Below, piece by piece: positions 597 through 50,411 of a stretch of DNA of 61,564 bases. A program made the translations under genes and the position numbers. The notes beneath the pieces were generated by a model. It saw only the letters and a list, made by a program, of their open reading frames with translations, searched no databases and was not told the DNA's origin. Numbering within the stretch: position 1 is the stretch's first letter; every line of letters starts with the position of its first letter. The stretch comes from Candidatus Woesearchaeota archaeon. GTDB lineage: Archaea; Nanobdellota; Nanobdellia; Woesearchaeales; ARS49. The DNA is taken from assembly GCA_014729555.1 (NCBI GenBank), contig WJJT01000036.1, forward strand, positions 1 through 61,564, in the 5' to 3' direction.

Positions 597-629
597 TTCC
601 GGATTTTTTGAGCAAAAACATATAAAGAC
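597..629 (+). promoter_or_regulatory. Promoter, member of the extended CCGGA...GCAAA..CATATAAAG family
   Basis: TTCCGGATTTTTTGAGCAAAAACATATAAAGAC. The TATA ends 23 nt before the ATG at 650. Confidence 0.55.
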
Positions 630-2740: not shown

Positions 2741-2821
2741 CCCTATTGCACCAGGATTACTATATCCTTGTTTAGAGATTAAGATTATATAAAGGTTTGC
2801 CACAAAATAAAGTGAAAGTTT

Positions 2822-2838
2822 GTCCTTGCGGACAGATA
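2822..2838. repeat. 17-nt repeat GTCCTTGCGGACAGATA, copy 2
   Basis: Perfect match to 1854-1870. The adjacent TAGAAGTTGCATA (2837-2849) also recurs at 1140-1152. Confidence 0.8.
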
Positions 2839-2886
2839 GAAGTTGCATAGAGAAACTTTATAAATCGCAGCAGGATTTCTTTAATC

Positions 2887-17477: not shown

Positions 17478-18674
17478 ATGATATGGCAATTAATACTCGC
17501 AATAACAATAGGAATCATCTGTGGAATAATCACTGGATTGACACCAGGAATACACATAAACTTAGTTTCAGTATTGATTGTTAGCCTTAGCTCAATATTC
17601 CTGGAATACACATCTGCATTATTTTTAGCCACAATCATCATTTCAATGGGGGTAACACACACATTTCTTGACTCAATCCCATCAATATTCCTGGGAGCTC
17701 CTGATTCTGACACAGTAATGGCAGTCCTGCCAGGACACAAGCTGTTGTTTCAGGGCTTGGGCTGGGATGCAGTAAGGCTTACTGTAATTGGTTCTTTGCT
17801 TTGCCTGCTTCTTTGTGTTGCAGTAATACCAGCACTTGTGCTTGTTTTTCCGATTTTATATTCACTGATTAAGAACTATATAGGGTATCTCCTGATTTTA
17901 ATGGTTGGATTCATCATTCTAAAAGACAGCAAAAAGATTTGGGCAATTATCATATTTGTTCTTTCTGGAACACTTGGATTGATTGTTTTAAACTCAGAAA
18001 TATCACAGCCATTGTTTCCAATGCTTTCAGGGATGTTTGGAATATCTGCATTGATTATTTCATTATTCAACAAAGTAGAGGTTCCAACACAAGTAGACGA
18101 AGAATATGTGCAGGTAAGCATCGGAGAATACATCAAAAGCTTGATTGGCGGGGTCTTCTCAGGCAGTTTTGTAGCACTGTTTCCAGGAATAGGGGCTGCA
18201 CAGGCAGCAGCAATGTCAACAGTATTGTTCAAAGTAAAAGAATATGGCTACCTGATTTTAGTGGGAGGCATCAACACTGTGAACTTTATTATCGCACTGG
18301 TCACTGTTTATACTTTAGACAAAGCAAGAAACGGAGCAATAGTTGCAGTAATGGAAATATTAGCAAATATGGATATGGCCAGATTAGTCACATTTGCAGC
18401 AGTTGCATTGATTGCAGGAGGAATTGCCACGATTTTAACATTAAAGATTGCAAAACTTTTTGCATTCATGATAGAGGAAATTGATTACAAGATAATATCC
18501 TTTTTGATTATGTTATTTATCATTGGACTTGCGTTCTACTTATCCGGCTCAACAGGATTACTGGTGTTACTGATAAGCACTGCAATAGGAATAGTGCCAC
18601 AGATAACAGGAGCGTGCAGAAGCAATGCAATGGGGTGCCTTTTACTGCCAGTAATAGTATTTTACCTGCTTTAA
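17478..18674 (+). CDS. Polytopic membrane protein, TctA/DUF112-like
   Basis: About 10 predicted TM helices. GLTPGIHINL and GAPDSDTVMAVLPGH resemble TctA-family motifs. Confidence 0.5.
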   Translation: MIWQLILAITIGIICGIITGLTPGIHINLVSVLIVSLSSIFLEYTSALFLATIIISMGVTHTFLDSIPSIFLGAPDSDTVMAVLPGHKLLFQGLGWDAVRLTVIGSLLCLLLCVAVIPALVLVFPILYSLIKNYIGYLLILMVGFIILKDSKKIWAIIIFVLSGTLGLIVLNSEISQPLFPMLSGMFGISALIISLFNKVEVPTQVDEEYVQVSIGEYIKSLIGGVFSGSFVALFPGIGAAQAAAMSTVLFKVKEYGYLILVGGINTVNFIIALVTVYTLDKARNGAIVAVMEILANMDMARLVTFAAVALIAGGIATILTLKIAKLFAFMIEEIDYKIISFLIMLFIIGLAFYLSGSTGLLVLLISTAIGIVPQITGACRSNAMGCLLLPVIVFYLL

Positions 18675-22666: not shown

Positions 22667-23092
22667 CTACTTAAGCCAAGCAGGCATCATATGAGCAACA
22701 AAAGGCCAGACATAAGGGGCGGCAACAACAAGGGCGCCAATCAATGCACTGTGAAACCATGTTTCTTTCATGCCAACACTGACCCCTCCTACAGAACCCT
22801 TTATTGCAGCACTAGCACCATGAATCTTAACCATAGTAATAAAACCCACTCCAATCTGAAACACAATAGGGTATTGTATCAAAGGAATACTCTGCAAAAA
22901 AGAAAACGTGCTGTAAATAAAGGCAGCATTCATAGTGAAAAACACTGCAATGACTGCATAAACCAAGGCGTGCATCATGTGGCCAAACCTGTGCGTAGGA
23001 ACAGTGACATCCCTGTGCAAAAGAATTGTCTCATAAATACCGATAATCAAGCCAATCAACAATGCAGGAAATATAACAATTTCGGCCATCAA
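22667..23092 (-). CDS. Polytopic membrane protein with several His residues
   Basis: Four or five TM helices. AAAGGTGA Shine-Dalgarno before the ATG and a TATA/CCCG motif upstream. The overlapping plus-strand ORF 22634-23233 has junk composition. Confidence 0.65.
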   Translation of the reverse strand: MMAEIVIFPALLIGLIIGIYETILLHRDVTVPTHRFGHMMHALVYAVIAVFFTMNAAFIYSTFSFLQSIPLIQYPIVFQIGVGFITMVKIHGASAAIKGSVGGVSVGMKETWFHSALIGALVVAAPYVWPFVAHMMPAWLK

Positions 23093-23171
23093 GTATCACC
23101 TTTTTCGATAATACTTAAGAACTCTGGCTTAACTGTATATAAATTTTTCGGGAAAAACAGGGTTTTTCAGC

Positions 23172-23537
23172 TTACTCGCTTTTTTCAGAAGGAAAGCCTT
23201 CTGGCCAGTCAAAAACTTCATTGTTTCGCCTAATTTCAAGCTCATCAAGCCAGGCAAGATCCTCTATCGACAGCTTATCTGACCGGTTTCCATCACCAGT
23301 GTCACACCTCAACAGAACTGCAGGCCATTTTCCAGGGTGCTTAAGCCTTCCATTAAGCTCCATCTCTTTCTGGCGAGCAACATATCTTTGCAATGTATCT
23401 TTATCTTCAAACGGATAATTCCATTCTCTAAATTCGTCATTGCTTCCGCCAAAGCCAAAAGGACAGCAAGCATTAAGAGTCAACATTCCTGCATAAAGCG
23501 CGTGCATTGGTCTCATTTCATATCCTAGTATTTTCAT
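23172..23537 (-). CDS. Hypothetical protein, first gene of the candidate system block
   Basis: 121-aa ORF with normal composition, divergent from the FHA-caspase gene. No motif recognised. Confidence 0.55.
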   Translation of the reverse strand: MKILGYEMRPMHALYAGMLTLNACCPFGFGGSNDEFREWNYPFEDKDTLQRYVARQKEMELNGRLKHPGKWPAVLLRCDTGDGNRSDKLSIEDLAWLDELEIRRNNEVFDWPEGFPSEKSE

Positions 23538-23594
23538 TTTGAATTACGCCCCACAATTATATTTACTATCAAACGGTGATTATTTAAAAAGATT

Positions 23595-23636
23595 GCGGAA
23601 GATTTGCGGGTTTTTAGAGGATAAACATATAAAAAC
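23595..23636 (+). promoter_or_regulatory. Promoter of the FHA-caspase gene (TTGCGGGTTTTT...CATATAAAA)
   Basis: TATA ends 23 nt before the ATG at 23657. The upstream CGGGTTTTT element also occurs in the kinase promoter. Confidence 0.55.
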
Positions 23637-23656
23637 GAAAAAACAACATTAAAAGC

Positions 23657-24712
23657 ATGCAAGAGATAGCAAGATGGAAAATACGGCCTTCAGCAGTCGG
23701 AGACATATACGGAAAAAACCTTGAGCTGGAGAGAAGAATAATACCAGTATACAAGCCAATACTAATAGGCACATTAGCAGGGCATTTTCAAGACAATAAA
23801 GGAGAGTGGAGCTATGAGCTTCTTGAGATAGATGAAGAGACAAACAACACACTAATTAAGAGAATGCTTCAAAAAAAGCCTCAGCTGGAGAGTGTTGTGA
23901 ACAATGCAGGGTTTCAGCAGGTTCTCAGGATAAATCCCGCCAGATACAGGCACATATCCAGGTTTCATGCAATACTGGGCACAAAACAGGGTAATTTGTA
24001 CATTGCAGACCTAGAGAGCAAGAATGGCATATACACAGGCCTGCCTGCAGAACAAACACGCTCTGCAATACTGCGAGATGGACAGATAATATACTTAGGC
24101 GGCAAAGCAAAAGACAGTGCGCAGATAAAAGTACATGAAGCAATTAGTAAGGCATATGCACTGCTTGTAGGAGTTGATTACAAAAACCAGAACAGCAAAG
24201 TAATTGAAAAAGAGATTTGGCAAATAGATCAAATGCTCAGAAAACTGGGCGTGCCGTATGAATGCAGAACATTAAAACACAGCCATGCAACAAAAGAAAA
24301 CATCACAAGTTATCTGCAAAGAGCAGAAAGCCTGCCAGAAAACAACCTTTTCTTTTTCTTTTGTGGCGCACATGGAAGCAAAGCAGCAATATCGTCAGCA
24401 GATGGAAAGCTTGCAAAACAAGAGCTGGCCGGGCTGCTGAACAGGATACAAGCAAAAAAAATCATGATAATAGACATATGCCATGCCTGGGGCGGCTGGC
24501 AGGAGCTTGACCTTGACAGCGGGCTGTATTTTTTCTCTTCACAAGAAGAGGAAACAGCAAAATGGGGGGGATTCACACCAGGATTAGCAGAAAGAATTGC
24601 AGAATTACTAAACAAAAAAGAGCCAATTGACATGAAACAAATAAGAATCAATGACCTGGCAAGAGCGCACACACCAGCAAAAAAAGGAAACAAGTCAATA
24701 ATACTGTATTAA
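23657..24712 (+). CDS. FHA domain fused to a caspase-like (peptidase C14 fold) domain
   Basis: FHA: ISRFHAIL and ESKNGIYTG. Caspase-like: ALLVGVDYKN (strand 1), FFFCGAHG (catalytic His) and MIIDICHAWGG (catalytic Cys), in the canonical order and spacing. Confidence 0.7.
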   Translation: MQEIARWKIRPSAVGDIYGKNLELERRIIPVYKPILIGTLAGHFQDNKGEWSYELLEIDEETNNTLIKRMLQKKPQLESVVNNAGFQQVLRINPARYRHISRFHAILGTKQGNLYIADLESKNGIYTGLPAEQTRSAILRDGQIIYLGGKAKDSAQIKVHEAISKAYALLVGVDYKNQNSKVIEKEIWQIDQMLRKLGVPYECRTLKHSHATKENITSYLQRAESLPENNLFFFFCGAHGSKAAISSADGKLAKQELAGLLNRIQAKKIMIIDICHAWGGWQELDLDSGLYFFSSQEEETAKWGGFTPGLAERIAELLNKKEPIDMKQIRINDLARAHTPAKKGNKSIILY

Positions 24713-25986
24713 TCAAAAATCTCGCTTATTTTCAGAAAAACATAATGCAAGGCAAGAGTTGCAAACCCTGCAAAAGAACCGCTTCCGATAACACGCGTAT
24801 ACTCATTAAAATAATCAAGAAAAGAATCAGGCAGAATGCCATACACTGCCCCTCCAAGAAGAGTGCCTGTAACAGCACCAGCCACACCAAATGCATTGGC
24901 CTGATCTATAGTCAGATTAATATCCAGCCTCTTGGATTCCAGGCTTACAGCAGCAACATTAAACAAAGTACCTGAAAAAGAGCTAATGCCTGCAGAGCAA
25001 AGAGTCTCAGTAACACTATAACTAAAACCAGTTGCAGTGAAATACAACATAGCAGCAGCAACAGGAGCATACATCATGCATGCAACAATACATCCAATAC
25101 CCCTGCCTGAAACATCATGCTTATCAACCGCAGGCTCTTGTTTTACAGGAGATGCATAAGGCATGTCCCACTCACCAGGTGTCTGGGCTGCCCTGAGTGC
25201 ATTACGCATCTCTGAAGCGCTCTGAAACCTCTCACCAGGATTCCTGCTCCTGCTCTTCAGAATAATATCATCCAGTCTTTTGTCACCAACAGACTCATAA
25301 GTATATAACGGCTCGTCACCAGTAAGCATCTTATAGAGCACAGTACCAACAGAAAAAACATCAGATCTTGCATCTGCACTTCCCTGCATCTGCTCAGGAG
25401 CCATATAAGCAATAGTGCCGACAACCCTGCTCCTCAAGTCTTCATCAATATCCCCAAGACTGTGCTCTAACTCCTTGCCAGCAAGATTAGGATTAGTGAT
25501 TGTTGCCCAGGAACTCCTTATTTTTCTCTTGTAATCCTTGAACAAGCCAAAATCAGCAAGCTTTGCAAAACCTTTTTTATCAAACAAGATATTCTCAGGC
25601 TTGATATCCCTATGAATAATACCCCTGCTATGCGCGTAATCCAGGCCCTTCAGGACATTAACCGCAATATCAACAGCAGCGCCCTTTTCAAGTGCAGTGA
25701 CATTAACCCTGTCAGCAAGGCTTTTGCTGCACAACTCCATTTCAATATAATTTCTGCCCTCATCTTCACCACAGCTATACACTTCAACAATATTAGGGTG
25801 GCCTTTAAGCCTCATCAAGACCTCTGCCTCTTTATCTGCAGAAGGGTTTGGCTTTGTAAATACCTTGCAGGCAACCTTTTTGCAGGCAGTCATGCTTAAG
25901 GCTTCATAAACATCACTAAAAGCACCCCTTCCAATACGCTCATCAAGCGCGCAGTTTCCTATCATCTTTCCAGACAAGTTTTCCAT
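24709..25986 (-). CDS. Hanks-type Ser/Thr protein kinase with a C-terminal multi-TM domain
   Basis: GRGAFSDV glycine loop, VACKV, HRDIKPENILF, DFG, AYMAPE, then about 130 aa of hydrophobic helices. 4-nt 3' overlap with the FHA-caspase gene. Confidence 0.9.
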   Translation of the reverse strand: MENLSGKMIGNCALDERIGRGAFSDVYEALSMTACKKVACKVFTKPNPSADKEAEVLMRLKGHPNIVEVYSCGEDEGRNYIEMELCSKSLADRVNVTALEKGAAVDIAVNVLKGLDYAHSRGIIHRDIKPENILFDKKGFAKLADFGLFKDYKRKIRSSWATITNPNLAGKELEHSLGDIDEDLRSRVVGTIAYMAPEQMQGSADARSDVFSVGTVLYKMLTGDEPLYTYESVGDKRLDDIILKSRSRNPGERFQSASEMRNALRAAQTPGEWDMPYASPVKQEPAVDKHDVSGRGIGCIVACMMYAPVAAAMLYFTATGFSYSVTETLCSAGISSFSGTLFNVAAVSLESKRLDINLTIDQANAFGVAGAVTGTLLGGAVYGILPDSFLDYFNEYTRVIGSGSFAGFATLALHYVFLKISEIFD

Positions 25987-26004
25987 GAAAAAACGTCTGG
26001 TTTT

Positions 26005-26034
26005 ATTCTTTATATGCCTTTGCCAGAAAAACCC
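26005..26034 (-). promoter_or_regulatory. Promoter of the kinase gene (CGGGTTTTTCTGGCAAAGGCATATAAAGA on the minus strand)
   Basis: Shares 21 identical nt (TCTGGCAAAGGCATATAAAGA) with repeat D at 17437-17457. TATA lies 23 nt before the ATG. Confidence 0.6.
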
Positions 26035-26139
26035 GAAATATTTGCGAAAAAACTGAAAATCTGAAAACTTGCCATCAGAGCGAAATATTTATATAGAAAA
26101 TAAATAGAGTTGAGTATAATATAGAAAAGAGATGAATAA

Positions 26140-28467
26140 ATGGCAATACTTGATAATTTAATGAGTATTTATCAGTCTTATCCCTGGGTATTTGACGGAA
26201 TAATCATATGTGTCCTGCTGGGCGTGTTGTTCAGAATTCTTTTTGAAAAAGGAAAGATAGGAGATGAAAAACAAGCCAAAAAACTAGGCGGAATATTCGG
26301 ATTCTTCCTCGGCATAGCAATGATCGGCTACATGCAGTACAGAGGCTGGACACTGTTCATTGACGGCGGGCCATGGGTTTTTTCAATCGTGATAATATCA
26401 TTAGTTCTTGTTTTATGGGCAGTCATGGATGGCCTGCTAAAGCACGAACACAGGTCAGTAACACTGCCATTAGCATTTGTGGTTGCAACAATGCTAATCT
26501 ATGCATTCCTGAACTTTGTCCCATCATACATGGCAGGAGTCGGTAACTTGTTTGGTGATTCTGTCTGGATATGGCATCTCATCATGTGGTGTTTAATGAT
26601 ATTCATACTTTTCTGGGCGTTACTTGGCATGATGGCAGGAGGAATGCCAAAAGCAGGAGAGGGATTTTGGGGTGCAGTAGGAGGAGCAATAAAAGCACCA
26701 TTCAAGGCAGCAGGCTGGGGGCTTGAAGGGGCAGGCGACATCTATGACTGGTGGAAAGACAAGAGAGCAGACAGAAAAAGAAGAGCCGCAGCAAGAGAAA
26801 AGCCAGCAGACACACCAGAAGAAACTGAAAAAATAGATACAGACACAGACACAGACCTTGCAGATGCAAGCGAAGAAGCAGAAAAAACAGACAAGGCGCT
26901 TGATGCTGCAAAAGCAATAAGCTCAGCACTTGCAAAAGTGCTCAATGAAATAAGAGCATCTGCAAACGGAGCAAGGCAGTTTCCTGCAGAATTCAAGCCA
27001 GAAAACTACAGTAACATAAGCAAATGGCTGAAGGCAAAACAAGGTGAATTAAATTCAGAAAAAAAGAGCTTTGATGGAATAAAACTTGTTGAAAAGCTAA
27101 TCAATGCACAAGAAGCACTGCAGAAAGCAAAAGCAGATGTTAATGCAGAACTGCAGAAAATAGGCACATATACAAAAATAAATGAAGCAATCACAAAAAT
27201 AGGCCAGATAAGTGATGACAATCCAGAAAAGGCGCGGCTGCTTGCAGACGCACAGGCAGAACAAAAGCATCTTGCACAAATAGTCTCAGGACTGCAGGCA
27301 GTAATAAAACCATTTGAAGACGCAATAAATGAAATCCTAAAAAAAGAAGAACTTGCCCAGACAAAATCAAAAATAGAGGAATTAGACAACCACATAACAG
27401 CACTGCAGGCACTATTGCCAGCAGTAATCAAAGACCTTGCAGAACTGGGAAAAGAGATTCCAGAAGAGGCAAAAAAACCACTTCAAGACAAGATCAAGCC
27501 AAACTGCGACAAAATAATCACTTCAGCAACAAACGCAATAGAAACACTCGGAACACTAAACAAAGTCATTATAGACGGGCGGCTAAAACAAGGAGTGATT
27601 GCAGCAGAAGCTGCAATAACAAGATTTATTGAAAGCAAAAAAATATACATAAAAGACTTTGTGCAATTACAGGCAGACGTTGACGCACTGCTTGCAAGAA
27701 TCAATCAAATCCTGTCAAAACAAATGTCACCAAAAGAAAAGACAACAATGGTCACAGCACTTGATAACATAAAAAACACAATAGCAACACAAAAAAACGA
27801 ACTTCTCACACTGATAACAGAAGCAGAAAAATTCATCAAAGCCATCAAAAAAGCATGGGAGATACAGACAGAGACAAAAAGAAAGATGGAGACAGATATA
27901 GCAATAACAGAAAAAAAGACAACAGAAGAACTCATAAAACAACAAGAAGAAGAGGCCAGAGCACAGATAACAGCAGCAATAGAAGCAGCAAAAAAAGAGC
28001 AGACAGACACAGTAAAAATCCTTACTGCAGGAGCAGCAACAGTCAAAAAAGCAAAATCAGAGCTTGTGACAGCAAGAAACATGCTCTCACAGCTGGTGCA
28101 GAAAACAGCAGGAAAAAGAAGGAAAAATGCAGAAATACTCCTAAAAAACCTGAATTACATGCTTGAAGAAGAAGAGGAAATACAAAAAGGCCTGAACTTT
28201 CTTCGAGACTATGAAAAATATATAATAGACACAGTGCTGGCAAGAACAGAACTGCCAAAAACAAAAAGAAAAATAGGCTCAGTAATATACGAATTAAGAA
28301 ACAAAATAATCAAGCCGCTTAAAGAAATCGTGCAGATGCTTGACGAAGAACTCATATTCCTGACAAAAGAAGAAAAAGAATTAACTGCAGAGCCTATCTC
28401 GCCGCCACCACCATCAGGAGCAGCCACAAGACCAATAGAAATGCCTGTGCCTCCACCGCCAGCCTAA
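26140..28467 (+). CDS. 775-aa protein: N-terminal ~190-aa multi-TM domain, ~500-aa coiled coil, proline-rich C-terminus (PPPPSG...PPPPA)
   Basis: Hydrophobic helices in residues 1-190, then a long heptad-like A/E/K/L/Q-rich sequence. No catalytic motif. Confidence 0.8.
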   Translation: MAILDNLMSIYQSYPWVFDGIIICVLLGVLFRILFEKGKIGDEKQAKKLGGIFGFFLGIAMIGYMQYRGWTLFIDGGPWVFSIVIISLVLVLWAVMDGLLKHEHRSVTLPLAFVVATMLIYAFLNFVPSYMAGVGNLFGDSVWIWHLIMWCLMIFILFWALLGMMAGGMPKAGEGFWGAVGGAIKAPFKAAGWGLEGAGDIYDWWKDKRADRKRRAAAREKPADTPEETEKIDTDTDTDLADASEEAEKTDKALDAAKAISSALAKVLNEIRASANGARQFPAEFKPENYSNISKWLKAKQGELNSEKKSFDGIKLVEKLINAQEALQKAKADVNAELQKIGTYTKINEAITKIGQISDDNPEKARLLADAQAEQKHLAQIVSGLQAVIKPFEDAINEILKKEELAQTKSKIEELDNHITALQALLPAVIKDLAELGKEIPEEAKKPLQDKIKPNCDKIITSATNAIETLGTLNKVIIDGRLKQGVIAAEAAITRFIESKKIYIKDFVQLQADVDALLARINQILSKQMSPKEKTTMVTALDNIKNTIATQKNELLTLITEAEKFIKAIKKAWEIQTETKRKMETDIAITEKKTTEELIKQQEEEARAQITAAIEAAKKEQTDTVKILTAGAATVKKAKSELVTARNMLSQLVQKTAGKRRKNAEILLKNLNYMLEEEEEIQKGLNFLRDYEKYIIDTVLARTELPKTKRKIGSVIYELRNKIIKPLKEIVQMLDEELIFLTKEEKELTAEPISPPPPSGAATRPIEMPVPPPPA

Positions 28468-28469
28468 TT

Positions 28470-30239
28470 CTAAGCAGCAGAAAGCTTTTTATTGCAGTCA
28501 TCCAGGTTTTGTTTTGCTTGTGCAAGCCTTGTCACAGCAACCTTGTTCTCAGGATTCTGAACAAGCTCCTGCTCAACAGCAGCAACTGCCTTTTGATAAT
28601 GCACTCTGGCAGACTTGTAATCCTGACTGTGCTCATAGAAAATATTACCAAGATTATTATGCGCAACACACCTGATTAAATTATCCTTAGGTTCTGTAGC
28701 AAGGAATTTAGCATAAACCTTCTGCTTAAGCTCATACGGGGCATTATTCTCCTTAAGAGCATGCATCCAGCCCCAGATCTCTTTCTGGTGCTCTGCCTTG
28801 ACCTCATCAAGCATCTGGCTGTATCTGTCATCCTCATCCTCAAGAGTAGGCAATGAAGCCTCCTCTGGCTCATGCCAAGGAGCATTAACTTTCTTTCTGT
28901 CCTGACCTACACGACTGCCGGACTTTGCCTCTTCAATCAAGTCTGAAACAAGAACAGCAAGTTTTTTGCCTCTTGAACGCAATTCCTGCAGCTGCTCATT
29001 ATCATTAAATTCGGCATTCTGCGCAAAAGCACTCTCTATAAAAGCATACCACTCTGCAACACTATCGCCAAGCTCAGCAAACCTGGCACTGTATTGCGCG
29101 AATAAAGCATCATATTCCTCTCTCATCTGAGCACTGTCTTTTTTTGCTTTGTCTCTTTCCTGCTCAAGACCTGCGCTCTTCTCAGAAAGCGTCACAATAT
29201 TTTCATCTGCTTCAAGAAGCTGTCCCTGCAATTTATCAATCTCCTGCATGTACTCATGCTCTGCATACATAAGCTTTTCCTGCAAGTCCTTGATTTCAGC
29301 AGCACTTAGCTTTTGATCATGCTCATTAGCAAGAATCCTTTCCTGTAATTCCTGCATTTCAGCCTGCTTGTACTCTAATGTTTGAGCAAGATCTAACTGC
29401 AAGTTTTTTTTGTCCTCTTCAAAAACAGCTTTACCTGCTTCAAGACCAGAAACTCTTTGTTTTAAAGTATCATTTGCAAGTGTAACACTTCTACAGGCAT
29501 GGCCAGCCTCTGTCAGTTCTGTCTCAAGTTCTGCTTCTCTTGCCTCAATTACTGATTTTTCAGCTGCCTGGGCTGTTTTATCAGCCTCAAGCTTAGCAAC
29601 GTCTCTTGCAAGAGCTTCTTTTTGACCTGCAACTTTCTCTTTATCTGCCTGGACTTCTGCTTTTGCAGCCTTTGCATCAAGCACTTCATCCTCAAGCATG
29701 TTTATCTTCTTTTTACAGGCATGCCTGACCTGAGTCTCAACGTGTTCACCTATTGTAAAAATATTATTAAGCGCGTCAATAAAAGCAGTTTCATCATATT
29801 TTCTAAGCCTGGGCTCATTATTCAAAAGATACATTGCAATATTTTCTGCAGCATTCTTCAAGAAAGGCTGAACATTGTGCGGATTTATGTTGCTTGGATC
29901 AATTCCGGCAAGATCCTCTGCTTCTACCAAAATTCTCGGAATACAGGCCCTGGCAGCCTTTAAAATGCTTTCAGAGGCACTTGCCTCGCCTGTTCCATCT
30001 TCTTTGTCTTTTTTCTCAACAAGACGGAAAACAACCCTTTCAACAAGGCCTCTCTCATCTGGCGTGACACTGTAAGAAGGCTTTTTCTGCACACCTTTCA
30101 ACTCTTCAGGTGTAAAATACTCTTTGATTTCACTTCTAGGAATATAATGCGCTGCAAGATCAGCAACAGCACTATGCAAATCTTGAAATGTTCTTAATGG
30201 ATTTTCTGATTTTTGTGATTTTTTATTTTTTTTTGCCAT
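28470..30239 (-). CDS. 589-aa acidic coiled-coil protein with a C-terminal TPR-like hairpin (paralog set member 4)
   Basis: Basic N-terminal peptide MAKKNKKSQK, central coiled coil, C-terminal AHNNLGNIFYEHSQDYKSARVHYQKAV. Its stop is 2 nt from the stop of the convergent 775-aa gene. Confidence 0.8.
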   Translation of the reverse strand: MAKKNKKSQKSENPLRTFQDLHSAVADLAAHYIPRSEIKEYFTPEELKGVQKKPSYSVTPDERGLVERVVFRLVEKKDKEDGTGEASASESILKAARACIPRILVEAEDLAGIDPSNINPHNVQPFLKNAAENIAMYLLNNEPRLRKYDETAFIDALNNIFTIGEHVETQVRHACKKKINMLEDEVLDAKAAKAEVQADKEKVAGQKEALARDVAKLEADKTAQAAEKSVIEAREAELETELTEAGHACRSVTLANDTLKQRVSGLEAGKAVFEEDKKNLQLDLAQTLEYKQAEMQELQERILANEHDQKLSAAEIKDLQEKLMYAEHEYMQEIDKLQGQLLEADENIVTLSEKSAGLEQERDKAKKDSAQMREEYDALFAQYSARFAELGDSVAEWYAFIESAFAQNAEFNDNEQLQELRSRGKKLAVLVSDLIEEAKSGSRVGQDRKKVNAPWHEPEEASLPTLEDEDDRYSQMLDEVKAEHQKEIWGWMHALKENNAPYELKQKVYAKFLATEPKDNLIRCVAHNNLGNIFYEHSQDYKSARVHYQKAVAAVEQELVQNPENKVAVTRLAQAKQNLDDCNKKLSAA

Positions 30240-30240
30240 A

Positions 30241-31284
30241 TTACTCTGCCTCTGCTGTGACTGTGTTTTCTTTTAATTGATTTTCATAAAACTCAACATT
30301 ATGCTCAAGCATGCCCCACTTATGCAGTGATTCTGCACAGGGGTTTTTAATTAGTTCAGTCTTGCTCACTTGTCTGGCTCTTCTTGCATAATTGAATGCT
30401 TTCTCACACTCGCCCCTGCCTGCGCTTGTCTCTGCCAGTTCACTCAAAACATAAACCAAAACCTCCTTGTCTTTTGACTTACAGCCCTTAGCACCTGCAT
30501 AGGCTTCAAAAACATAATTCCTGAACTCTTCTGCCTCCTGCTTTTCAGCATCAGGGGCAGTTGCATAAGCAGTATCAACCTCTTCAAGAGCCTTTTCCCA
30601 AAAACACCTGTTCTTTTCATCAATAACAATTTTTTCACCAGATGCAAGCTGCAGGATTACAGAATATTTCTCAGTAACACTAACTCCTTCATATGGCTGT
30701 ACATTGCAATCAGAAGCTTCTGACGTACTGTCAAGCACAGACTCAAGCTGCTCTTCAGAATCAGGAGCCTCTACATCTTTAAGCTGTTCTGTTTTTGTGC
30801 CAACAATAACCGTATCATCAGTATCATCAAGGTCCTCTATAACCCGCGTTTCCAGCGCAGCAACATACTCTCTTTCTTGTTTTGAAGGCCCTGCTGGAAT
30901 CGCAGTCTTTGTATCATGAATATCTGTTTCAGCAGGAGGAAAATCCTGTTCAGGCGCAGATTCCTCTTGATGAGTTTTCTGCAATCTACCAGGCTGATCA
31001 CTAGTGCCTGCAAATTCCTGCACTTTATCAAACCCCACCAGATTAGGATCTGTGCCACTACTGACTTTTTCTGCCATACAATCAGCCGTATCTCTTTCCA
31101 GTTCGTCATCCTCAAATGCAGCAGGAGCTGGTGCACATAATTCAGGAACATGGGTTATATTTCTAGGATCAACTTCAGGAGCTGGCTCTGCCTTTTCCCT
31201 GGCTTTATCAGCTGCTCTTTTCTTTAATGTTCCTGTCCAAGCAGATGGCCTGCTCACCTTTTTTGGCCTTTTTCTCTGAGTCAT
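30241..31284 (-). CDS. Acidic protein with a C-terminal TPR-like hairpin (paralog set member 3)
   Basis: MTQRKRPKK basic N-terminus, D/E/T-rich middle, C-terminal VLVYVLSELAETSAGRGECEKAFNYARRAR. Confidence 0.75.
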   Translation of the reverse strand: MTQRKRPKKVSRPSAWTGTLKKRAADKAREKAEPAPEVDPRNITHVPELCAPAPAAFEDDELERDTADCMAEKVSSGTDPNLVGFDKVQEFAGTSDQPGRLQKTHQEESAPEQDFPPAETDIHDTKTAIPAGPSKQEREYVAALETRVIEDLDDTDDTVIVGTKTEQLKDVEAPDSEEQLESVLDSTSEASDCNVQPYEGVSVTEKYSVILQLASGEKIVIDEKNRCFWEKALEEVDTAYATAPDAEKQEAEEFRNYVFEAYAGAKGCKSKDKEVLVYVLSELAETSAGRGECEKAFNYARRARQVSKTELIKNPCAESLHKWGMLEHNVEFYENQLKENTVTAEAE

Positions 31285-31376
31285 TTTAGTCTTTACCCAC
31301 AAACTATGGTTTTTTACCACTATTTGGTAGTATTACTCATATATAAAGCTTTTGGTTTTGAGGGGTTTGTTGGGGT

Positions 31377-32648
31377 TTATTCCTTTATTTCAGCCCTGTA
31401 AAACGCAAGATTCTCTTCAGCCTCTTTCAAGTTATCAGATAATTTCTCCTTGCACAAGTTCCTTGCCCTTGCTGCATAAGACTCTGCCTCTGCTTTTTTG
31501 CCGTCATCATAAGCTGAACCAGCCAGTTCACTCAAAACAAAATACATAACTTCAGGATCTCTTGAGGCTGCAATGCTATACAATTCAAAAGCACACCTTC
31601 TTACTTCTGAAACATACTGCGCCATAAAAGCAGAATCATTAATCTCATCAGCAGCAGGAACATCAGCAACTGCATCAGACAACTCATTCAATAAATTCTC
31701 TGCTTTTTCATCAAGGCCTGCAGGAGCTTCTTTTGCCTGCCTTGCCTCTGCAACAGCATTTTCTGCAGACTGCTTGTAACCAGCAACTTGTGCCTTGTAA
31801 GCCTTAACAACAGACATAATTTTATCCAGAGTTTTAATGTAACTTAACACTTCAAGAGCATGCTCAACACTTGGAGTTTCTGGCTCCTGCTCTTCTTGCT
31901 TTTTCCTGAAAATAGCAGTAACTGCAGAATCTTTAGCACTCTTTACCTTTCCAACAATCCAGTCAATTGTGCTGTCTTTTGCATCAGGCTCAGCAGCTTC
32001 AGGCTCTTGCTCTAAAACCTCTGCTGCAACTGCATCAAGCTTTTTACAGAGTGTATCAAATGCATTCTTAAGACCATCATATGGCTTTGCAGCATCTTTC
32101 AGGCTGGAAATCTTATTCCTTAGCCCGGTGATATTAGCCTGGTAAGTTTTAAACAGCCCTAAAAGCTCTGCAAACTCTCGGCCCTCTGCTGCACCTGAAG
32201 GAAAAACTTCAGCCAGCAGAGCTCTAATATAATCATCACGTGCATTGACCTGATCTTCAAGTTCCTGATATTCCTCTGTATCTTGTATATCTAAAACAGA
32301 CATTTCTTCGGGCTGCTCAGGCACTTTGACAGCAAGCTGATCCTGCATACCAGTAATCTTTGTTTGCATTTGCTTAAATTCTTCAGCAAGCTGTGTTTTC
32401 TCAGCTTTATTTAAGCCATATTTATGAACAATTGTTATTGTCTTTTTATCAGGATCTGTTAGGAGTGTAACCATCTCAACCCTAAGCTCATTATCCTCTG
32501 TCCAGAAATCAGGTGTATTCACAACATCAGATTTATTTAACATCTCATAGCCTTTATCTGAAAATTGCTTGGCAAAATCATCAAAATTGGTTTTCCTGCC
32601 TATGTGAGCTCCTAGTTCCCCGTCTTCCCAGGACTTATGTTCATCCAT
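31377..32648 (-). CDS. Acidic coiled-coil protein with a C-terminal TPR-like hairpin (paralog set member 2)
   Basis: C-terminal VMYFVLSELAGSAYDDGKKAEAESYAARAR aligns with member 3. Start ATGGATGA overlaps the upstream stop. Confidence 0.75.
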   Translation of the reverse strand: MDEHKSWEDGELGAHIGRKTNFDDFAKQFSDKGYEMLNKSDVVNTPDFWTEDNELRVEMVTLLTDPDKKTITIVHKYGLNKAEKTQLAEEFKQMQTKITGMQDQLAVKVPEQPEEMSVLDIQDTEEYQELEDQVNARDDYIRALLAEVFPSGAAEGREFAELLGLFKTYQANITGLRNKISSLKDAAKPYDGLKNAFDTLCKKLDAVAAEVLEQEPEAAEPDAKDSTIDWIVGKVKSAKDSAVTAIFRKKQEEQEPETPSVEHALEVLSYIKTLDKIMSVVKAYKAQVAGYKQSAENAVAEARQAKEAPAGLDEKAENLLNELSDAVADVPAADEINDSAFMAQYVSEVRRCAFELYSIAASRDPEVMYFVLSELAGSAYDDGKKAEAESYAARARNLCKEKLSDNLKEAEENLAFYRAEIKE

Positions 32649-33837
32649 CTTTAGCCTCTGCAAAATAATCCTTGAATTTCTGGATCTCTGCCTTTATTGA
32701 TTCTTTGCTTTCTTCTGGTGCAAGATCAAGAGCTGTCTGGCATAATGATTCTGCCTTCTTCAACTGCTCTTTTGCTAATTTTTCTTCGCCTTCTTGTGAA
32801 TAGGAATCACTAAGAATCCCATGCAGATAAGCCTGCTGAACAAGCTCAACTGGGTCTGCGGGAGAAAGTGCAAGACTATATCCTGCTTGATCTGCCTCTT
32901 CTTTCAGGCTGGTTATTACCTCAACAAGGTATGGAACTGGCTCTTTTCTTAACCTGGTTTTATCAAGTTCCTTTCCTATTAAATACTGGGGCATATTGCT
33001 AAGCGCAGGTGCATGCTTTTGATTTTCATGGCCATAATCTGCAATCCTGTTTTTTTGCTGTAGTAATTTATCAAGCGCATATGCAGCAACTTTGCCTTCT
33101 GAATCAGATGCATTTGTTACCAAACTAGACAAAAATTCTTTTTCATCTGGAAAATGCTCAAGAAGCCCTTGGTACAGCCTCTGTATTAGTTTCCGCTGCG
33201 TAATTGCTGCCAGTATCGTGTCTGAAAATATATCTTTGTAAGATTCTTTTTCTTCTTCTGGCTTTTCCCCTTTATTATCTGCATCCTTCAGGCTATCTGC
33301 ATAATCAATCCTGCATCTTGCATCTGCAACTGTATCAGGAACTATCTTTGCAAGGCAGTCCATCAGTTTGTTATACTTATCATTTGCAGTATCTTCTTTA
33401 CTATGTGCTTTCATAAGAGCTCCTTGAACACGGGCCTCAAAGTGTTTTGCATTCTCTATGGTCACCCGCAGAACTTCCTTAAACATAAAATCCTCTCTTG
33501 ATTCTGAAGGACTGCCATCTGCACGCGCTAAGATTTCAGCAGCCTCAGTCTCACCTGCATAGTCTTCTAAAATTCTTTTATTGCTTTTGCATAAATCTAC
33601 GACAGAAAGAATAAATGTCTGCAATTCTTCAAAAGCCTCAAACTGCCGCACCCTGCTCTGCGCTGCCTCTGCATCTTGTTTGTACCGTTGCTTTTTAAGA
33701 TTAGAGTCTCTTATTTTCTTTTCTAGATCAGCAATGATCTCAGCATCAGGTCTACGAAACATACTGATTGCTCTTGCAAGAATACTAAGTCTAGGTTTTT
33801 TCTGTCTATTTTCATCAGGCATTTTTTTTTCAGCCAT
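32641..33837 (-). CDS. Acidic helical protein with a C-terminal TPR-like hairpin (paralog set member 1)
   Basis: Basic N-terminus ...RQKKPRLS, C-terminal AYLHGILSDSYSQEGEEKLAKEQLKKAESL. Confidence 0.75.
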   Translation of the reverse strand: MAEKKMPDENRQKKPRLSILARAISMFRRPDAEIIADLEKKIRDSNLKKQRYKQDAEAAQSRVRQFEAFEELQTFILSVVDLCKSNKRILEDYAGETEAAEILARADGSPSESREDFMFKEVLRVTIENAKHFEARVQGALMKAHSKEDTANDKYNKLMDCLAKIVPDTVADARCRIDYADSLKDADNKGEKPEEEKESYKDIFSDTILAAITQRKLIQRLYQGLLEHFPDEKEFLSSLVTNASDSEGKVAAYALDKLLQQKNRIADYGHENQKHAPALSNMPQYLIGKELDKTRLRKEPVPYLVEVITSLKEEADQAGYSLALSPADPVELVQQAYLHGILSDSYSQEGEEKLAKEQLKKAESLCQTALDLAPEESKESIKAEIQKFKDYFAEAKDG

Positions 33838-33960: not shown

Positions 33961-34152
33961 TTACTTAACAAGCCACATATGCAAACCAATCAAAGCAATG
34001 ACAATAGGCCATATTGTCAAGCCGCCTGTGCTCAGGTATCCAAGGTCAGCAGCCATGAACCAAAGGCCAACCAATAGAACAAGAATTCCAAACCAGCCAG
34101 GGCACTTTCCTGGTGAGCAGATCATTCCCATGCTTTTTTTCTTAGCCATCAA
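33961..34152 (-). CDS. Small two-TM membrane protein
   Basis: 63-aa ORF with a basic N-terminus and two hydrophobic helices. Confidence 0.4.
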   Translation of the reverse strand: MMAKKKSMGMICSPGKCPGWFGILVLLVGLWFMAADLGYLSTGGLTIWPIVIALIGLHMWLVK

Positions 34153-34316
34153 ATCACCTCAAATTAATTTAATTAAACATTAAATCCACAAACGCAATAT
34201 ATAAATTTTTCGCCAAAAACCTTGTTTTCTTGAATTTAGAACTTGGACAAGCTCTAATTTTCGCTTGACTTAAGAAGAAAAGTTTAAATACTATGCTTTT
34301 CCTTGTCCTGAGTACA

Positions 34317-49395: not shown

Positions 49396-49803
49396 TTAGT
49401 GAGAAACAAGTTTTAAGTGGCTTTTCTGGCGCAGCACAACAACAGAAATGCCTTTTTGTTTCAGTTTCCTCTTTAACTCAGCATCTGTTGTTGCAACAAT
49501 CGTGTCCCTGCCTGCAATATCAAGAATCAATTCATCAACAATCCTGTCTTTTTTTGTCTTGATTGACGGAATCTTCTTAGCCTTCAGGATGGCCTTTGCC
49601 AGTTTAGCATCTGCCTTGGACTTGCCTTTCTGGCTTTCAATTATGTTATCCAGCTCATCAAGAGTCTTGTCAATAACATAAATTTTATAAGGAAAATCAA
49701 GGATTCTTTTCAGCTCCTCCACATAATCAACCTTATGACTAGCACAGTGAATCAAAAAATCAGTGTCCAGTATTACTGCCTTTACCATATGCCTTAATGT
49801 CAT
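49396..49803 (-). CDS. Fcf1/Utp24-like PIN-domain endonuclease
   Basis: AVILDTDFLIH....K, and IVATTDAELKRKLKQKGISVVVLRQK is typical of archaeal Fcf1 homologs. Confidence 0.75.
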   Translation of the reverse strand: MTLRHMVKAVILDTDFLIHCASHKVDYVEELKRILDFPYKIYVIDKTLDELDNIIESQKGKSKADAKLAKAILKAKKIPSIKTKKDRIVDELILDIAGRDTIVATTDAELKRKLKQKGISVVVLRQKSHLKLVSH

Positions 49804-50365: not shown

Positions 50366-50411
50366 TAATACCCACCAAAAACAAGAAAGTATCTGCACTA
50401 TATAAAACATT

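What the first reader, a model, noticed from the sequence alone, without database searches (positions are those of the whole stretch)
23172..33837. Candidate undescribed system: FHA-caspase fusion, Hanks kinase, membrane coiled-coil giant and four paralogous acidic coiled-coil proteins
Eight consecutive, tightly packed genes span 10.7 kb. Only two carry enzymatic signatures: a Ser/Thr kinase with a C-terminal membrane domain, and a phospho-Thr reader (FHA) fused to a caspase-like protease domain. The remaining genes are a 121-aa unknown, a 775-aa protein (multi-TM domain, about 500 aa of coiled coil, proline-rich end) and four tandem acidic proteins of 348-589 aa. Three of those four (the 398-, 348- and 589-aa proteins) have basic N-terminal peptides, and all four share a C-terminal TPR-like hairpin. 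Stops of convergent genes overlap or abut: FHA-caspase and kinase overlap by 4 nt, and the 775-aa and 589-aa gene stops are 2 nt apart. The kinase and FHA-caspase promoters share a CGGGTTTTT...CATATAAA element. This architecture suggests a membrane-associated, phosphorylation-gated scaffold or protease switch. Possible roles include conflict or abortive infection, cell-surface or host-attachment control, or a cortical cytoskeleton. I do not recognise it as any named system.
Basis: partly seen in the sequence, partly recalled or inferred. Interest (0 to 1): 0.85.

Follow-up and report, generated by a model that had tools for sequence, protein, structure and literature searches.

The report
Archaeal kinase, FHA-caspase and variable scaffold cluster
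A small group of uncultured Woesearchaeota (DPANN archaea) carries a conserved but fast-evolving gene cluster: a membrane protein kinase, a caspase-like protease fused to a phospho-threonine-reader (FHA) domain, and a set of membrane-tethered helical proteins with no known relatives; it matches no described system and its function is still inferred.

Summary
The gene cluster is real. All eight ORFs sit at the stated coordinates. The 425-aa protein is a Hanks kinase with every catalytic motif and four C-terminal hydrophobic segments. The 351-aa protein has an FHA domain and a caspase fold with an invariant His-Cys pair.

The 775-aa protein has five transmembrane helices, a cytoplasmic rod and a conserved proline-rich tail.

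"Four paralogous coiled-coil proteins" is only partly right. Only the 347- and 423-aa proteins are demonstrably homologous, through their C-termini. The 347-aa protein is an acidic, proline-rich protein and not a coiled coil. The shared TPR-like ending is well supported for three of the four and is motif-level only for the fourth.

The neighbourhood is syntenic in roughly ten lineages of one Woesearchaeota clade, and the unknown proteins have almost no relatives elsewhere. The kinase/FHA-caspase pair also occurs alone in a different context, so it is the core module.

A new result: the cluster evolves much faster than its flanks, and modules have been exchanged between lineages by recombination.

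Best reading: a phosphorylation-recruited caspase-like protease acts on a membrane-anchored scaffold. No named system fits.

The parts
23172..23537 (-). g1, 121-aa unknown protein. A peripheral member, possibly co-transcribed with the 141-aa membrane gene downstream.
   Evidence: ORF. No family hit. Orthologues are 45-48% identical in L001 and L006, and absent in L007, L011 and L005.
23607..23633 (+). Promoter element CGGGTTTTT-N10-CATATAAA, ending 23 nt upstream of the g2 ATG.
   Evidence: Conserved upstream of g2 in L001, L006, L007, L011 and L013.
23657..24712 (+). g2, FHA plus caspase-like (clan CD, C14-type) protease, 351 aa.
   Evidence: FHA 31 bits. PADLOC caspase 1e-6. Peptidase_C14 in 7 of 8 orthologues. 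Foldseek to caspases, E 3e-6, probability 1.0. H239, G240 and C275 invariant, with D/E at -2 from Cys.
24709..25986 (-). g3, Hanks-type Ser/Thr kinase with a four-segment C-terminal membrane domain, 425 aa.
   Evidence: Pkinase 5e-46. All catalytic motifs present, hydrophobic segments at 296-417. Orthologues P0009-P0016.
26009..26035 (-). Second copy of CGGGTTTTT-N10-CATATAAA, ending 22 nt upstream of the g3 ATG.
   Evidence: Conserved in L001, L006 and L013.
26081..26139 (+). g4 promoter (perfect BRE/TATA consensus CGAAATATTTATATA) plus a roughly 45-nt leader that is near-identical between lineages.
26140..28467 (+). g4, 775 aa: five-TM anchor (1-165), Gly-rich and polybasic juxtamembrane stretch, roughly 540-aa hypervariable cytoplasmic rod, conserved Pro-rich C-terminal tail.
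   Evidence: Heptad segments. TM domain 72-86% identical against rod 22-34% between lineages. Total length conserved at 774-814 aa.
28470..30239 (-). g5, 589-aa acidic protein: conserved N-terminal domain (about 170 aa), variable coiled-coil middle, conserved C-terminal domain ending in a TPR unit.
   Evidence: Alignment A3. Only 6 true homologues in 1.84e9 representatives. The next hits are TPR proteins matching residues 489-562. Recombinant mosaic.
30241..31284 (-). g6, 347 aa (ATG start): basic N-terminal peptide, acidic Pro-rich region without heptad segments, C-terminal helical module homologous to that of g7. Absent in the L007 lineage.
31377..32648 (-). g7, 423 aa: small N-terminal alpha/beta domain, helical middle (about 150-200 aa shorter than its orthologues), C-terminal five-helix TPR-like module.
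   Evidence: AlphaFold model with residues 312-422 at pLDDT 70-92. TPR_10 E 0.05. Only 4 homologues in 5.8e9 clusters. Alignment A4.
32641..33837 (-). g8, 398-aa acidic helical protein with a basic amphipathic N-terminal helix and a C-terminal TPR-like motif.
   Evidence: Hydrophobic moment 0.61-0.77 in three of four lineages. Relation to g5-g7 is motif-level only.
33961..34149 (-). 62-aa LiaF-TM-like membrane protein upstream of g8 on the same strand, with a perfect-consensus promoter at 34198-34212. A possible ninth member or part of the backbone.
   Evidence: LiaF-TM, 6e-4, below cut-off. Near-identical in L006, L007 and L014. Promoter.
22667..23092 (-). 141-aa multi-TM protein adjacent to the cluster in every syntenic locus, with a perfect-consensus promoter at 23136-23150. 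Membership uncertain.
   Evidence: 76-86% identity. Promoter. Absent next to the pair in L012.

Best explanation
This is a lineage-specific, chromosomally fixed module in which threonine phosphorylation recruits a caspase-like protease to a membrane-anchored helical scaffold.

**Shown**
- A catalytically complete, membrane-embedded Hanks kinase (g3) is paired tail-to-tail with an FHA-caspase fusion (g2) that has an intact His-Cys dyad.
- Next to them lie a five-TM protein with a long cytoplasmic rod (g4) and three or four acidic helical proteins, each ending in a TPR-like module (g5-g8).

**Inferred**
1. The kinase phosphorylates itself and/or scaffold proteins on Thr at the inner membrane face.
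2. The FHA domain docks g2 onto a phospho-Thr site. The resulting local concentration activates the protease, as proximity-induced dimerisation activates caspases.
3. The protease probably cleaves after basic residues. The evidence is an acidic residue two positions before the catalytic Cys, as in metacaspases and paracaspases. It would cut one or more of the neighbour-encoded proteins. Candidate sites are the polybasic stretch next to the g4 membrane anchor and the basic N-terminal peptides of g5, g6 and g8.
4. Cleavage would release or remodel the scaffold. The TPR-like ends may dock on a common ligand such as the conserved Pro-rich tail of g4.

The biological role remains open: cell-envelope or host-contact organisation, or a conflict function. 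The hypervariable, recombining modules point to an interface under diversifying pressure.
For: - Domain calls and catalytic residues.
- The 3'-3' overlap of g2 and g3 recurs in L006 and L012, and the two genes abut or overlap in L001, L007 and L013.
- g2 and g3 share a conserved promoter element.
- g4 always lies next to the pair, in seven lineages, down to 26% g4 identity.
- The g3/g4 divergent intergenic region is conserved.
- Cytoplasmic topology of the g4 rod and kinase domain.
- TPR-like C-termini.
- g8-g7 and g6-g5 are separated by 1-2 nt.
- All cluster genes, enzymes included, share raised divergence and dN/dS (0.2-0.47 against 0.07-0.12 in the flanks), as if evolving as a unit.
- The g4 rod, g5 C-terminus and g7 C-terminus co-vary in which lineage they resemble.
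Against: - There is no direct evidence for any interaction, phosphosite or cleavage.
- The flanks are equally syntenic, so neighbourhood conservation is weak evidence of coupling.
- The pair occurs without g4-g8 in L012.
- The canonical phosphate-binding Arg of the FHA "GR" motif is not conserved, and the FHA half of the model has low confidence.
- No phosphatase lies in the cluster or window.
- No Thr is invariant in all lineages in a convincing FHA-ligand context.
- The P1 specificity is argued from one motif and from my own knowledge.
- The g4 rod and g5 C-terminus are physically adjacent, so part of the co-variation could be linkage alone.
Confidence: 0.35

Rival explanations
1. These are two unrelated units that are merely neighbours. 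The first is an autonomous two-gene signalling module: the kinase plus the FHA-caspase, whose substrates are encoded elsewhere. The second is a separate structural operon set (g4, g8-g7, g6-g5) forming a cortical or membrane cytoskeleton-like scaffold.
For: - The pair is found alone, 38-47% identical, in a different context in L012.
- Promoters differ. g4 and the flanking small membrane genes have consensus BRE/TATA, while g2 and g3 share their own element.
- Whole-region synteny includes housekeeping flanks.
- g4 length is conserved (774-814 aa) despite sequence turnover, as expected for a structural spacer.
Against: - g4 is never seen without the adjacent pair in seven lineages.
- Both halves share the unusual fast-evolving behaviour, in contrast to the flanks.
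- The divergent g3/g4 intergenic region is tightly conserved.
Confidence: 0.25
2. This is a conflict system: anti-viral (abortive-infection-like) or aimed at host-symbiont antagonism. The hypervariable rods and TPR proteins act as sensors or decoys. The kinase transduces the signal, and the FHA-caspase is the effector that cleaves cellular or invader proteins.
For: - Module hypervariability between close relatives: g4 TM 88% against rod about 30%.
- Uneven synonymous divergence that indicates repeated allele exchange.
- Raised dN/dS.
- Caspase, kinase, FHA, TPR and coiled-coil domains recur in prokaryotic conflict systems (PMC7159879, PMC8195603).
- The PADLOC caspase and kinase models hit.
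Against: - The locus is fixed, single-copy and at the same chromosomal site in all lineages. It sits between housekeeping genes, not in a variable island.
- No NTPase, nuclease, pore-former, toxin or mobile-element gene lies inside it.
- There are no relatives on viral contigs or in PHROGs.
- Gene-wide dN/dS stays below 1.
- The PADLOC kinase hits are generic kinase-domain matches.
Confidence: 0.25
3. The unknown ORFs are annotation artefacts or decaying genes, and only the kinase and the FHA protein are functional.
For: There are no family hits for six of the eight ORFs, and the middle regions are of low complexity.
Against: - Long intact ORFs are maintained in every lineage, with conserved terminal domains.
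- dN/dS is 0.2-0.47, well below 1.
- Gene order and tight coupling are conserved.
- The g7 C-terminal module has a confident AlphaFold model.
Confidence: 0.03

Closest known systems
Sulfolobus archaellum regulatory network (FHA protein ArnA, vWA protein ArnB, Hanks kinases ArnC/ArnD)
   Same: It is an archaeal Hanks-type kinase plus FHA phospho-Thr reader signalling system, with phosphorylation-dependent complex formation (PMC5007285; PMC6509490).
   Different: ArnA carries a zinc finger rather than a protease, and its partner is a vWA protein. The output is transcriptional repression of the archaellum. There is no caspase, no membrane rod and no TPR-ended acidic proteins. There is no sequence relationship beyond the domains.
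Bacterial membrane Hanks kinase plus FHA scaffold circuits (T6SS PpkA-Fha1-PppA; mycobacterial PknA/B with FhaA/FipA and the coiled-coil protein Wag31). From my own knowledge.
   Same: A membrane kinase and an FHA adaptor control the assembly of a membrane-associated machine or coiled-coil scaffold encoded nearby.
   Different: Those circuits have no protease fused to the FHA domain. A PP2C phosphatase is normally present there, and none is present here. The scaffolds are unrelated.
Prokaryotic caspase homologues (orthocaspases, metacaspases; structure GSU0716, PDB 3BIJ)
   Same: The caspase fold is shared (one search includes 3bij). So are the His-Cys dyad and the D-x-C-H-type motif. Orthocaspases cleave after basic residues (PMC6426788 abstract).
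   Different: Here the domain is short (about 185 aa), fused to an N-terminal FHA domain and paired with a kinase. The window protein itself is below Pfam C14 detection. I found no FHA-caspase fusion described in the papers searched.
Clan-CD proteases that cleave a neighbour-encoded substrate in defence systems (type III-E TPR-CHAT/Csx29 cleaving Csx30; bacterial gasdermin with its caspase-like protease). From my own knowledge.
   Same: A caspase-like protease is encoded beside its probable substrates, TPR modules are involved, and activation is by recruitment.
   Different: Those systems are triggered by an RNA-guided complex or an unknown phage cue, not by a kinase. No CRISPR, gasdermin or sigma-factor partner is present here.
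NTPase-centred conflict systems with caspase, kinase, FHA, TPR or coiled-coil components (Kaur et al. 2020, 2021)
   Same: The domain vocabulary overlaps, and components evolve fast (PMC7159879, PMC8195603).
   Different: The defining MoxR/vWA, GTPase or STAND NTPase and the effector-associated domains are all absent. This locus is not mobile and is not found in organisms with a multicellular habit.
Phosphorylation and caspase cleavage of eukaryotic intermediate filaments and lamins. An analogy only, from my own knowledge.
   Same: Rod proteins with basic heads are regulated by kinases and cut by caspases to dismantle a membrane-apposed scaffold.
   Different: No homology is detected. The archaeal proteins lack intermediate-filament signatures.

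Membership tests
Hanks-type (eukaryotic-like) Ser/Thr protein kinase | A Pkinase domain above the Pfam threshold, with the Gly-rich loop, VAxK Lys, HRD, DFG and APE motifs. | tested here: met
   PF00069, 157.6 bits against a cut-off of 31.7. Motifs at residues 19, 38, 125, 145 and 196.
FHA domain | A match to PF00498 above the gathering score. | tested here: met
   31 bits against 20.7 for g2. All 8 family members match, best E 1.2e-12.
FHA domain | The canonical phospho-Thr-binding residues (Gly-Arg, Ser-x-x-His, Asn). | tested here: inconclusive
   S101-R102-x-H104 and N123 are invariant. The "GR" arginine is not conserved (candidate G38-T39; R91 is lost in P0008 and L012). The N-terminal half is split by a roughly 55-aa insert and is modelled at low pLDDT.
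Caspase-fold cysteine protease (clan CD, Peptidase_C14) | The caspase/hemoglobinase fold. | tested here: met
   Foldseek against PDB: caspase-11, -7, -1, -8 and GSU0716, E 3e-6 to 1e-5, probability 1.0, target-normalised TM-score (TMt) 0.5-0.65, with pLDDT 73-93 over residues 165-300.
Caspase-fold cysteine protease (clan CD, Peptidase_C14) | A catalytic His (HG) and Cys (D-x-C-H) dyad, conserved. | tested here: met
   H239-G240 and C275 are invariant in 8 sequences, with D/E at -2. They are also kept in L012.
Caspase-fold cysteine protease (clan CD, Peptidase_C14) | A sequence match to PF00656 at the Pfam threshold. | tested here: inconclusive
   g2 itself has no hit at E 0.1 or better. Seven of 8 orthologues hit (best E 2.6e-7) and 6 hit the related C13 family. 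Whether the gathering score was passed is not reported.
Tetratricopeptide repeat (C-termini of g5-g8) | A match to TPR profiles or TPR proteins, and a helix-turn-helix repeat structure. | tested here: inconclusive
   - g5 residues 489-562 hit multi-TPR proteins at E 7e-7 to 6e-4 in a 1.84e9-protein search.
- g7: TPR_10 E 0.05; AlphaFold five-helix module; Foldseek best hits are 14-3-3 and KLC1-TPR, but E is 0.035 or worse.
- g6 is homologous to g7.
- g8 is motif-level only.
- None passes a Pfam cut-off in the window.
Known anti-phage defence systems (PADLOC-DB 2.0) | The system-specific component set. | tested here: not met
   Only generic kinase models (PD-T4-6, mad6, PglW and others) and a caspase model hit. 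The coiled-coil hits to LmuB and JetC are weak noise.
NTPase-centred ternary or STAND conflict systems (Kaur et al.) | A MoxR/vWA, GTPase or STAND NTPase core with effector-associated domains. | tested here: not met
   No NTPase, vWA or effector-associated domain was detected in any of the eight proteins or the immediate flanks.
ArnA/ArnB-type archaeal FHA module | A ZnF-FHA protein with a vWA partner. | tested here: not met
   Pfam finds no zinc finger or vWA domain.
SMC/Rad50-like coiled-coil ATPases | ABC ATPase head domains flanking the coiled coil. | tested here: not met
   There are only weak coiled-coil-region matches (TIGR02169, 19.9 bits against a cut-off of 729; JetC 2e-4) and no head domains.
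Mobile element or provirus | Integrase or transposase genes, att repeats, viral relatives, variable presence. | tested here: not met
   - None lies inside the cluster.
- The 31-nt direct repeat flanking it (23136 and 34198) is a shared promoter of two small membrane genes.
- No viral-contig relatives.
- Same site in all lineages.

The most novel reading that the evidence does not exclude
This would be a previously unrecognised class of archaeal system. A phospho-threonine-recruited caspase-like protease proteolytically switches a membrane-tethered coiled-coil/TPR scaffold. The scaffold's rod and docking modules are kept hypervariable by cassette-like recombination between lineages. That would make it a DPANN conflict or host-interface apparatus, and the first kinase-gated caspase circuit in archaea.
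Probability: 0.2. Interest if true: 0.85.

Novelty: new variant of a known kind. Interest (0 to 1): 0.62.

Why it matters
- **A new wiring of known parts.** Kinase-FHA signalling and caspase-like proteases are each known in prokaryotes. A reader domain fused directly to a caspase fold and paired with its kinase would tie phosphorylation to limited proteolysis in one step. That logic is otherwise associated with eukaryotic cell-death and cytoskeleton control, and here it appears in an archaeon.
- **Cost to a reduced genome.** The cluster takes 10.7 kb in DPANN symbionts, whose genomes are typically small (own knowledge). It is retained in every lineage of the clade. Its parts nevertheless evolve several-fold faster than neighbouring genes and are swapped between lineages. 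This suggests an important and contested function, such as host contact, envelope organisation or virus defence.
- **Orphan proteins.** Six of its proteins have essentially no relatives among billions of sequences, so it is a concrete entry point into DPANN "dark matter".
- **Testable predictions.** It makes specific predictions about kinase activity, phospho-dependent docking, P1 specificity and cleavage of neighbour-encoded proteins.

Tried and rejected
- **Family libraries.** Pfam, NCBIfam, PHROGs and PADLOC on all eight proteins gave only kinase, FHA and weak caspase hits. Matches to LmuB, JetC, SMC, Rab11-FIP3, Tup_N and similar are sub-threshold coiled-coil noise.
- **PDB sequence search with g2.** It found only a weak FHA hit.
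- **Foldseek of the g7 model.** Nothing was significant: 14-3-3 and KLC-TPR at E 0.035 or worse, RMSD over 20 Å. This was not used as evidence of 14-3-3-like phospho-binding.
- **HmpF hit.** A precomputed PF28019 (HmpF) hit on the L014 g5 orthologue could not be reproduced with the local Pfam copy. I treat it as a coiled-coil artefact.
- **Wider searches.** The g4 profile found only 3 loci in 185,579 species genomes and 3 in the metagenome collection. The viral scans were empty.
- **Island boundaries.** The 31-nt direct repeat flanking the cluster (23136 and 34198) was rejected as att sites. It is the shared BRE/TATA promoter of two small membrane genes and is close to the general consensus.
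- **Cluster-specific operator.** This idea for the g2/g3 promoter element was weakened by a third copy at 600-626.
- **Invariant Ser/Thr.** The search for candidate phosphosites gave nothing convincing.
- **Literature.** Searches for FHA-caspase or FHA-metacaspase fusions and for Woesearchaeota kinases found no description.

Full report
**Origin and layout**

The window is an archaeal contig. The 3' end of the 23S rRNA lies at 1-398. Its proteins are deposited as Candidatus Woesearchaeota archaeon, a DPANN lineage.

The eight ORFs of the finding are present at the stated coordinates:

| Gene | Coordinates | Strand | Size |
|---|---|---|---|
| g1 | 23172-23537 | - | 121 aa |
| g2 | 23657-24712 | + | 351 aa |
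| g3 | 24709-25986 | - | 425 aa |
| g4 | 26140-28467 | + | 775 aa |
| g5 | 28470-30239 | - | 589 aa |
| g6 | 30241-31284 | - | 347 aa from the ATG used by orthologues |
| g7 | 31377-32648 | - | 423 aa, the NCBI start |
| g8 | 32641-33837 | - | 398 aa |

- The g2 and g3 stops overlap by 4 nt.
- The g4 and g5 stops are 2 nt apart.
- g8-g7 and g6-g5 are separated by 2 nt and 1 nt.
- Base composition does not differ from the rest of the window.

**The two enzymes**

g3 is a Hanks kinase (Pkinase E 5e-46).
- It has every catalytic motif.
- It has an unusually long activation segment.
- Four hydrophobic, Gly/Ala-rich segments lie at 296-417.

g2 carries an FHA domain above the Pfam threshold. Its C-terminal half is a caspase-fold domain:
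- It hits the PADLOC caspase model at 1e-6.
- Seven of eight family members hit Peptidase_C14 and six hit the related C13 family.
- An AlphaFold model (pLDDT 73-93 over residues 165-300) matches caspase-11, -7, -1 and -8 and the bacterial GSU0716 at Foldseek probability 1.0.
- H239-G240 and C275 are invariant. An acidic residue sits two positions before the Cys.

One caveat applies. The FHA Ser-Arg-x-His and Asn are invariant, but the canonical "GR" arginine is not. The FHA half is also interrupted by a roughly 55-aa helical insert and is modelled poorly. Phospho-Thr binding is therefore inferred, not shown.

**The non-enzymatic proteins**

*g4*
- It has five TM segments. The charge distribution places the N-terminus outside and the long C-terminal part in the cytoplasm.
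- After the anchor come a Gly-rich and polybasic stretch, about 540 aa of largely helical rod with heptad segments, and a conserved Pro-rich tail.

*g5-g8*
- All four are acidic.
- Only the g6 and g7 C-termini are demonstrably homologous (BLAST 7e-9; hhalign 97%, E 8e-11).
- g5 and g8 align to them in register at a TPR-like motif, but only at E 0.005-0.03.

*Support for the TPR-like ending*
- An exhaustive HMMER search of g5 against 1.84 billion representatives found only six true homologues. The next hits were bona fide multi-TPR proteins matching residues 489-562.
- One g5 orthologue (L011) has four canonical TPR repeats inserted.
- The g7 model has a confident five-helix C-terminal module. 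Its Foldseek matches (14-3-3, KLC-TPR) are not significant.

*Other features*
- g6 is proline-rich and acidic, without heptad segments in any lineage.
- g7 and g8 orthologues contain coiled-coil segments that the shortened window versions largely lack.
- g8 starts with a basic amphipathic helix in three of four lineages.
- No family library recognises g1 or g4-g8.

**Distribution**

g2, g3 and g7 have only 8, 8 and 4 close cluster-level relatives among 5.8 billion clusters. All the contigs recovered show the same order:

DRG GTPase - L35Ae - DUF2391 - 141-aa TM protein - (g1) - g2 - g3 - g4 - g5 - (g6) - g7 - g8 - 62-aa TM protein - PAC2.

- g1 and g6 are missing in the most divergent lineage (L007/L010), where the 833-aa protein is the g7 orthologue. 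g1 is also absent from L005/L011, whose contigs end before the g6 position.
- The profile scans found nothing outside this clade: three loci in 185,579 species genomes and three in the metagenome set. No viral relatives were found.
- An orthologous pair (47% and 38% identity) lies convergent, with the same 4-nt overlap, in an unrelated neighbourhood in L012. There the kinase carries an extracellular coiled-coil region instead of the four-segment domain. No g4-g8 homologues lie on that 12.9-kb contig.
- The kinase/FHA-caspase pair is therefore the conserved core. The scaffold genes are an association specific to this clade.

**Regulatory sequence**

- CGGGTTTTT-N10-CATATAAA lies 22-23 nt upstream of both the g2 and g3 start codons. 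It is kept in orthologous loci.
- A 1-mismatch copy precedes an unrelated 23S-rRNA-intervening-sequence protein gene at 600-626. The element is therefore not exclusive to the cluster.
- g4, the 141-aa gene and the 62-aa gene carry the only three perfect matches in the window to a BRE/TATA consensus. This suggests strong expression.
- The g4 leader is nearly identical across lineages whose g4 proteins are only about 40% identical overall.

**Evolutionary behaviour (a new observation)**

| Comparison | Result |
|---|---|
| Flanking proteins between lineages | 68-93% identical |
| Cluster proteins between lineages | 15-82% identical |
| g4 TM domain among four lineages | 72-86% |
| g4 rod, window against L001 | 83% |
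| g4 rod, every other pair | 22-34% |
| L011 against L007, flanks | 92-93% |
| L011 against L007, g4 TM region | about 88% |
| L011 against L007, g4 rod | about 30%, with a sharp boundary near residue 230 |
| g5 residues 1-400 | closer to L006 |
| g5 residues 401-520 | closer to L001 |
| g7 C-terminus | follows L001 |

Synonymous divergence is uneven in the same way:
- For L011 against L007, dS is about 0.5 in the flanks and the g4 TM domain but 1.78 in the rod.
- For the window against L001, dS is 0.74-1.19 in the flanks but 0.33 in the g4 rod and 0.40 in the g7 C-terminus.
- This pattern requires exchange of modules by recombination. Faster amino-acid change alone cannot produce it.

Gene-wide dN/dS is 0.2-0.47 in the cluster against 0.07-0.12 in the flanks. 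The genes are under purifying but weaker or partly diversifying constraint. These estimates come from pairwise Nei-Gojobori counts on few genomes and need formal tests.

**Interpretation**

- *What the data establish.* This is a conserved, cytoplasm-facing, membrane-associated gene set. It has an active-looking kinase, a catalytically intact caspase-like protease with a phospho-reader domain, a membrane-anchored rod, and helical proteins ending in TPR-like modules.
- *My preferred mechanism (confidence 0.35).* The kinase creates phospho-Thr marks at the membrane. These recruit and concentrate the FHA-caspase, which then cleaves neighbour-encoded scaffold proteins.
- *P1 specificity.* Cleavage is probably after basic residues, by analogy with metacaspases and paracaspases (own knowledge; orthocaspase specificity is in the PMC6426788 abstract).
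- *Attractive candidate sites.* These are the polybasic juxtamembrane stretch of g4 and the basic N-terminal peptides of g5, g6 and g8. None has been tested.
- *First rival (0.25).* The two halves are merely neighbours.
- *Second rival (0.25).* The locus is a conflict system, favoured by the hypervariability. Against it are the fixed chromosomal position, the absence of an NTPase, nuclease or pore-former, and the absence of mobile-element signatures.

**Comparison with known systems**

- The locus works most like kinase/FHA circuits: Sulfolobus ArnA/B/C (PMC5007285), and the bacterial T6SS and mycobacterial division circuits.
- It also resembles clan-CD proteases that cut neighbour-encoded substrates.
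- It fails the defining features of each (see the membership table).
- The NTPase-centred conflict systems that use the same domain vocabulary (PMC7159879, PMC8195603) are excluded because no NTPase is present.
- I found no description of an FHA-caspase fusion in the searchable literature.

I therefore rate the locus a new variant of known kinase/FHA and caspase-like signalling. The chance that the whole assembly is a categorically new system is about 0.2.

Noticed in passing
window 26680-32000 (g4 rod, g5, g7); loci L001, L006, L007, L011, L014: The cluster is a hot-spot of diversification and recombination. The g4 rod is 22-34% identical between lineages whose g4 TM domain is 72-88% identical and whose flanks are 74-93% identical. 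g5 is a mosaic of L006-like and L001-like parts. dS differs 3- to 5-fold between adjacent modules.
   Followed up: yes
window 49760-50410 (-): A second FHA-domain protein (216 aa; FHA E 4.5e-14) with canonical GR, SxxH and a variant STCGT motif lies 16 kb away. It sits downstream of a 546-aa unknown protein (47706-49346). It is another possible partner of the kinase.
   Followed up: partly
window 33961-34149 (-) and 34198-34212: A 62-aa membrane protein with a sub-threshold LiaF-TM match lies just upstream of g8 on the same strand. It is near-identical in L006, L007 and L014 and has a perfect BRE/TATA consensus promoter.
   Followed up: partly
window 22667-23092 (-) and 23136-23166; 34198-34228: A 141-aa multi-TM protein with conserved His residues borders the cluster in every syntenic locus. 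Its promoter and that of the 62-aa gene form a 31-nt direct repeat (84% identical) that brackets the whole cluster 11,062 nt apart. I read this as shared promoter architecture, not att sites.
   Followed up: partly
window 600-626 (+), upstream of ORF 650-1114: A third copy (1 mismatch) of the CGGRTTTTT-N10-CATATAAA promoter element precedes a 23S-rRNA-intervening-sequence protein gene, just downstream of the 23S rRNA 3' end.
   Followed up: partly
window 26096-26139; same place in L001, L006, L007, L008: The g4 leader (GAAAATAAATAGAGTTGAGTATAATATAGAAAAGAGATGAATAAATG) is nearly invariant across lineages, although the g4 proteins are only 28-40% identical overall. It may be a regulatory or translation-control element.
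   Followed up: no
L011 12457-14916 (-): The g5 orthologue here is 819 aa and carries four canonical TPR repeats (TPR_11 E 1.4e-20) inserted in the middle. This shows modular gain of TPR units in this family.
   Followed up: partly
L012 2570-5613: This is a variant of the core pair in another context. The kinase (652 aa) has a TM helix, about 270 aa of apparently extracellular coiled coil and a second TM helix. Neighbours include a TM-anchored TPR protein, a metallophosphoesterase and an HATPase_c protein.
   Followed up: partly
L001 2743-5733 and L002/L003 2055-5747, against window 17478-18674: In two related lineages, a tyrosine-integrase, NikA-like and plasmid-like gene set sits next to a truncated TctA gene (107-131 aa). 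The window and L005 have an intact 398-aa TctA. This is probably an integrated element, unrelated to the cluster.
   Followed up: no
L008 (CAZXEZ010000013.1): A contig with the same Woesearchaeota-type synteny (g4 N-terminus 81% identical) is deposited as an "uncultured Methanosarcinales" MAG. It is probably mis-binned. It could also hint at co-occurrence with a methanogen host.
   Followed up: no
L014 7307-9394: The precomputed annotation lists a PF28019 (HmpF, a cyanobacterial coiled-coil motility protein) hit on the g5 orthologue. This was not reproducible with the local Pfam copy and is probably coiled-coil bias.
   Followed up: partly
window 1901-2848 (-): A soluble HisKA+HATPase_c histidine kinase (315 aa) is encoded in the same window, so the organism has both signalling types. 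A similar one lies near the core pair in L012.
   Followed up: no
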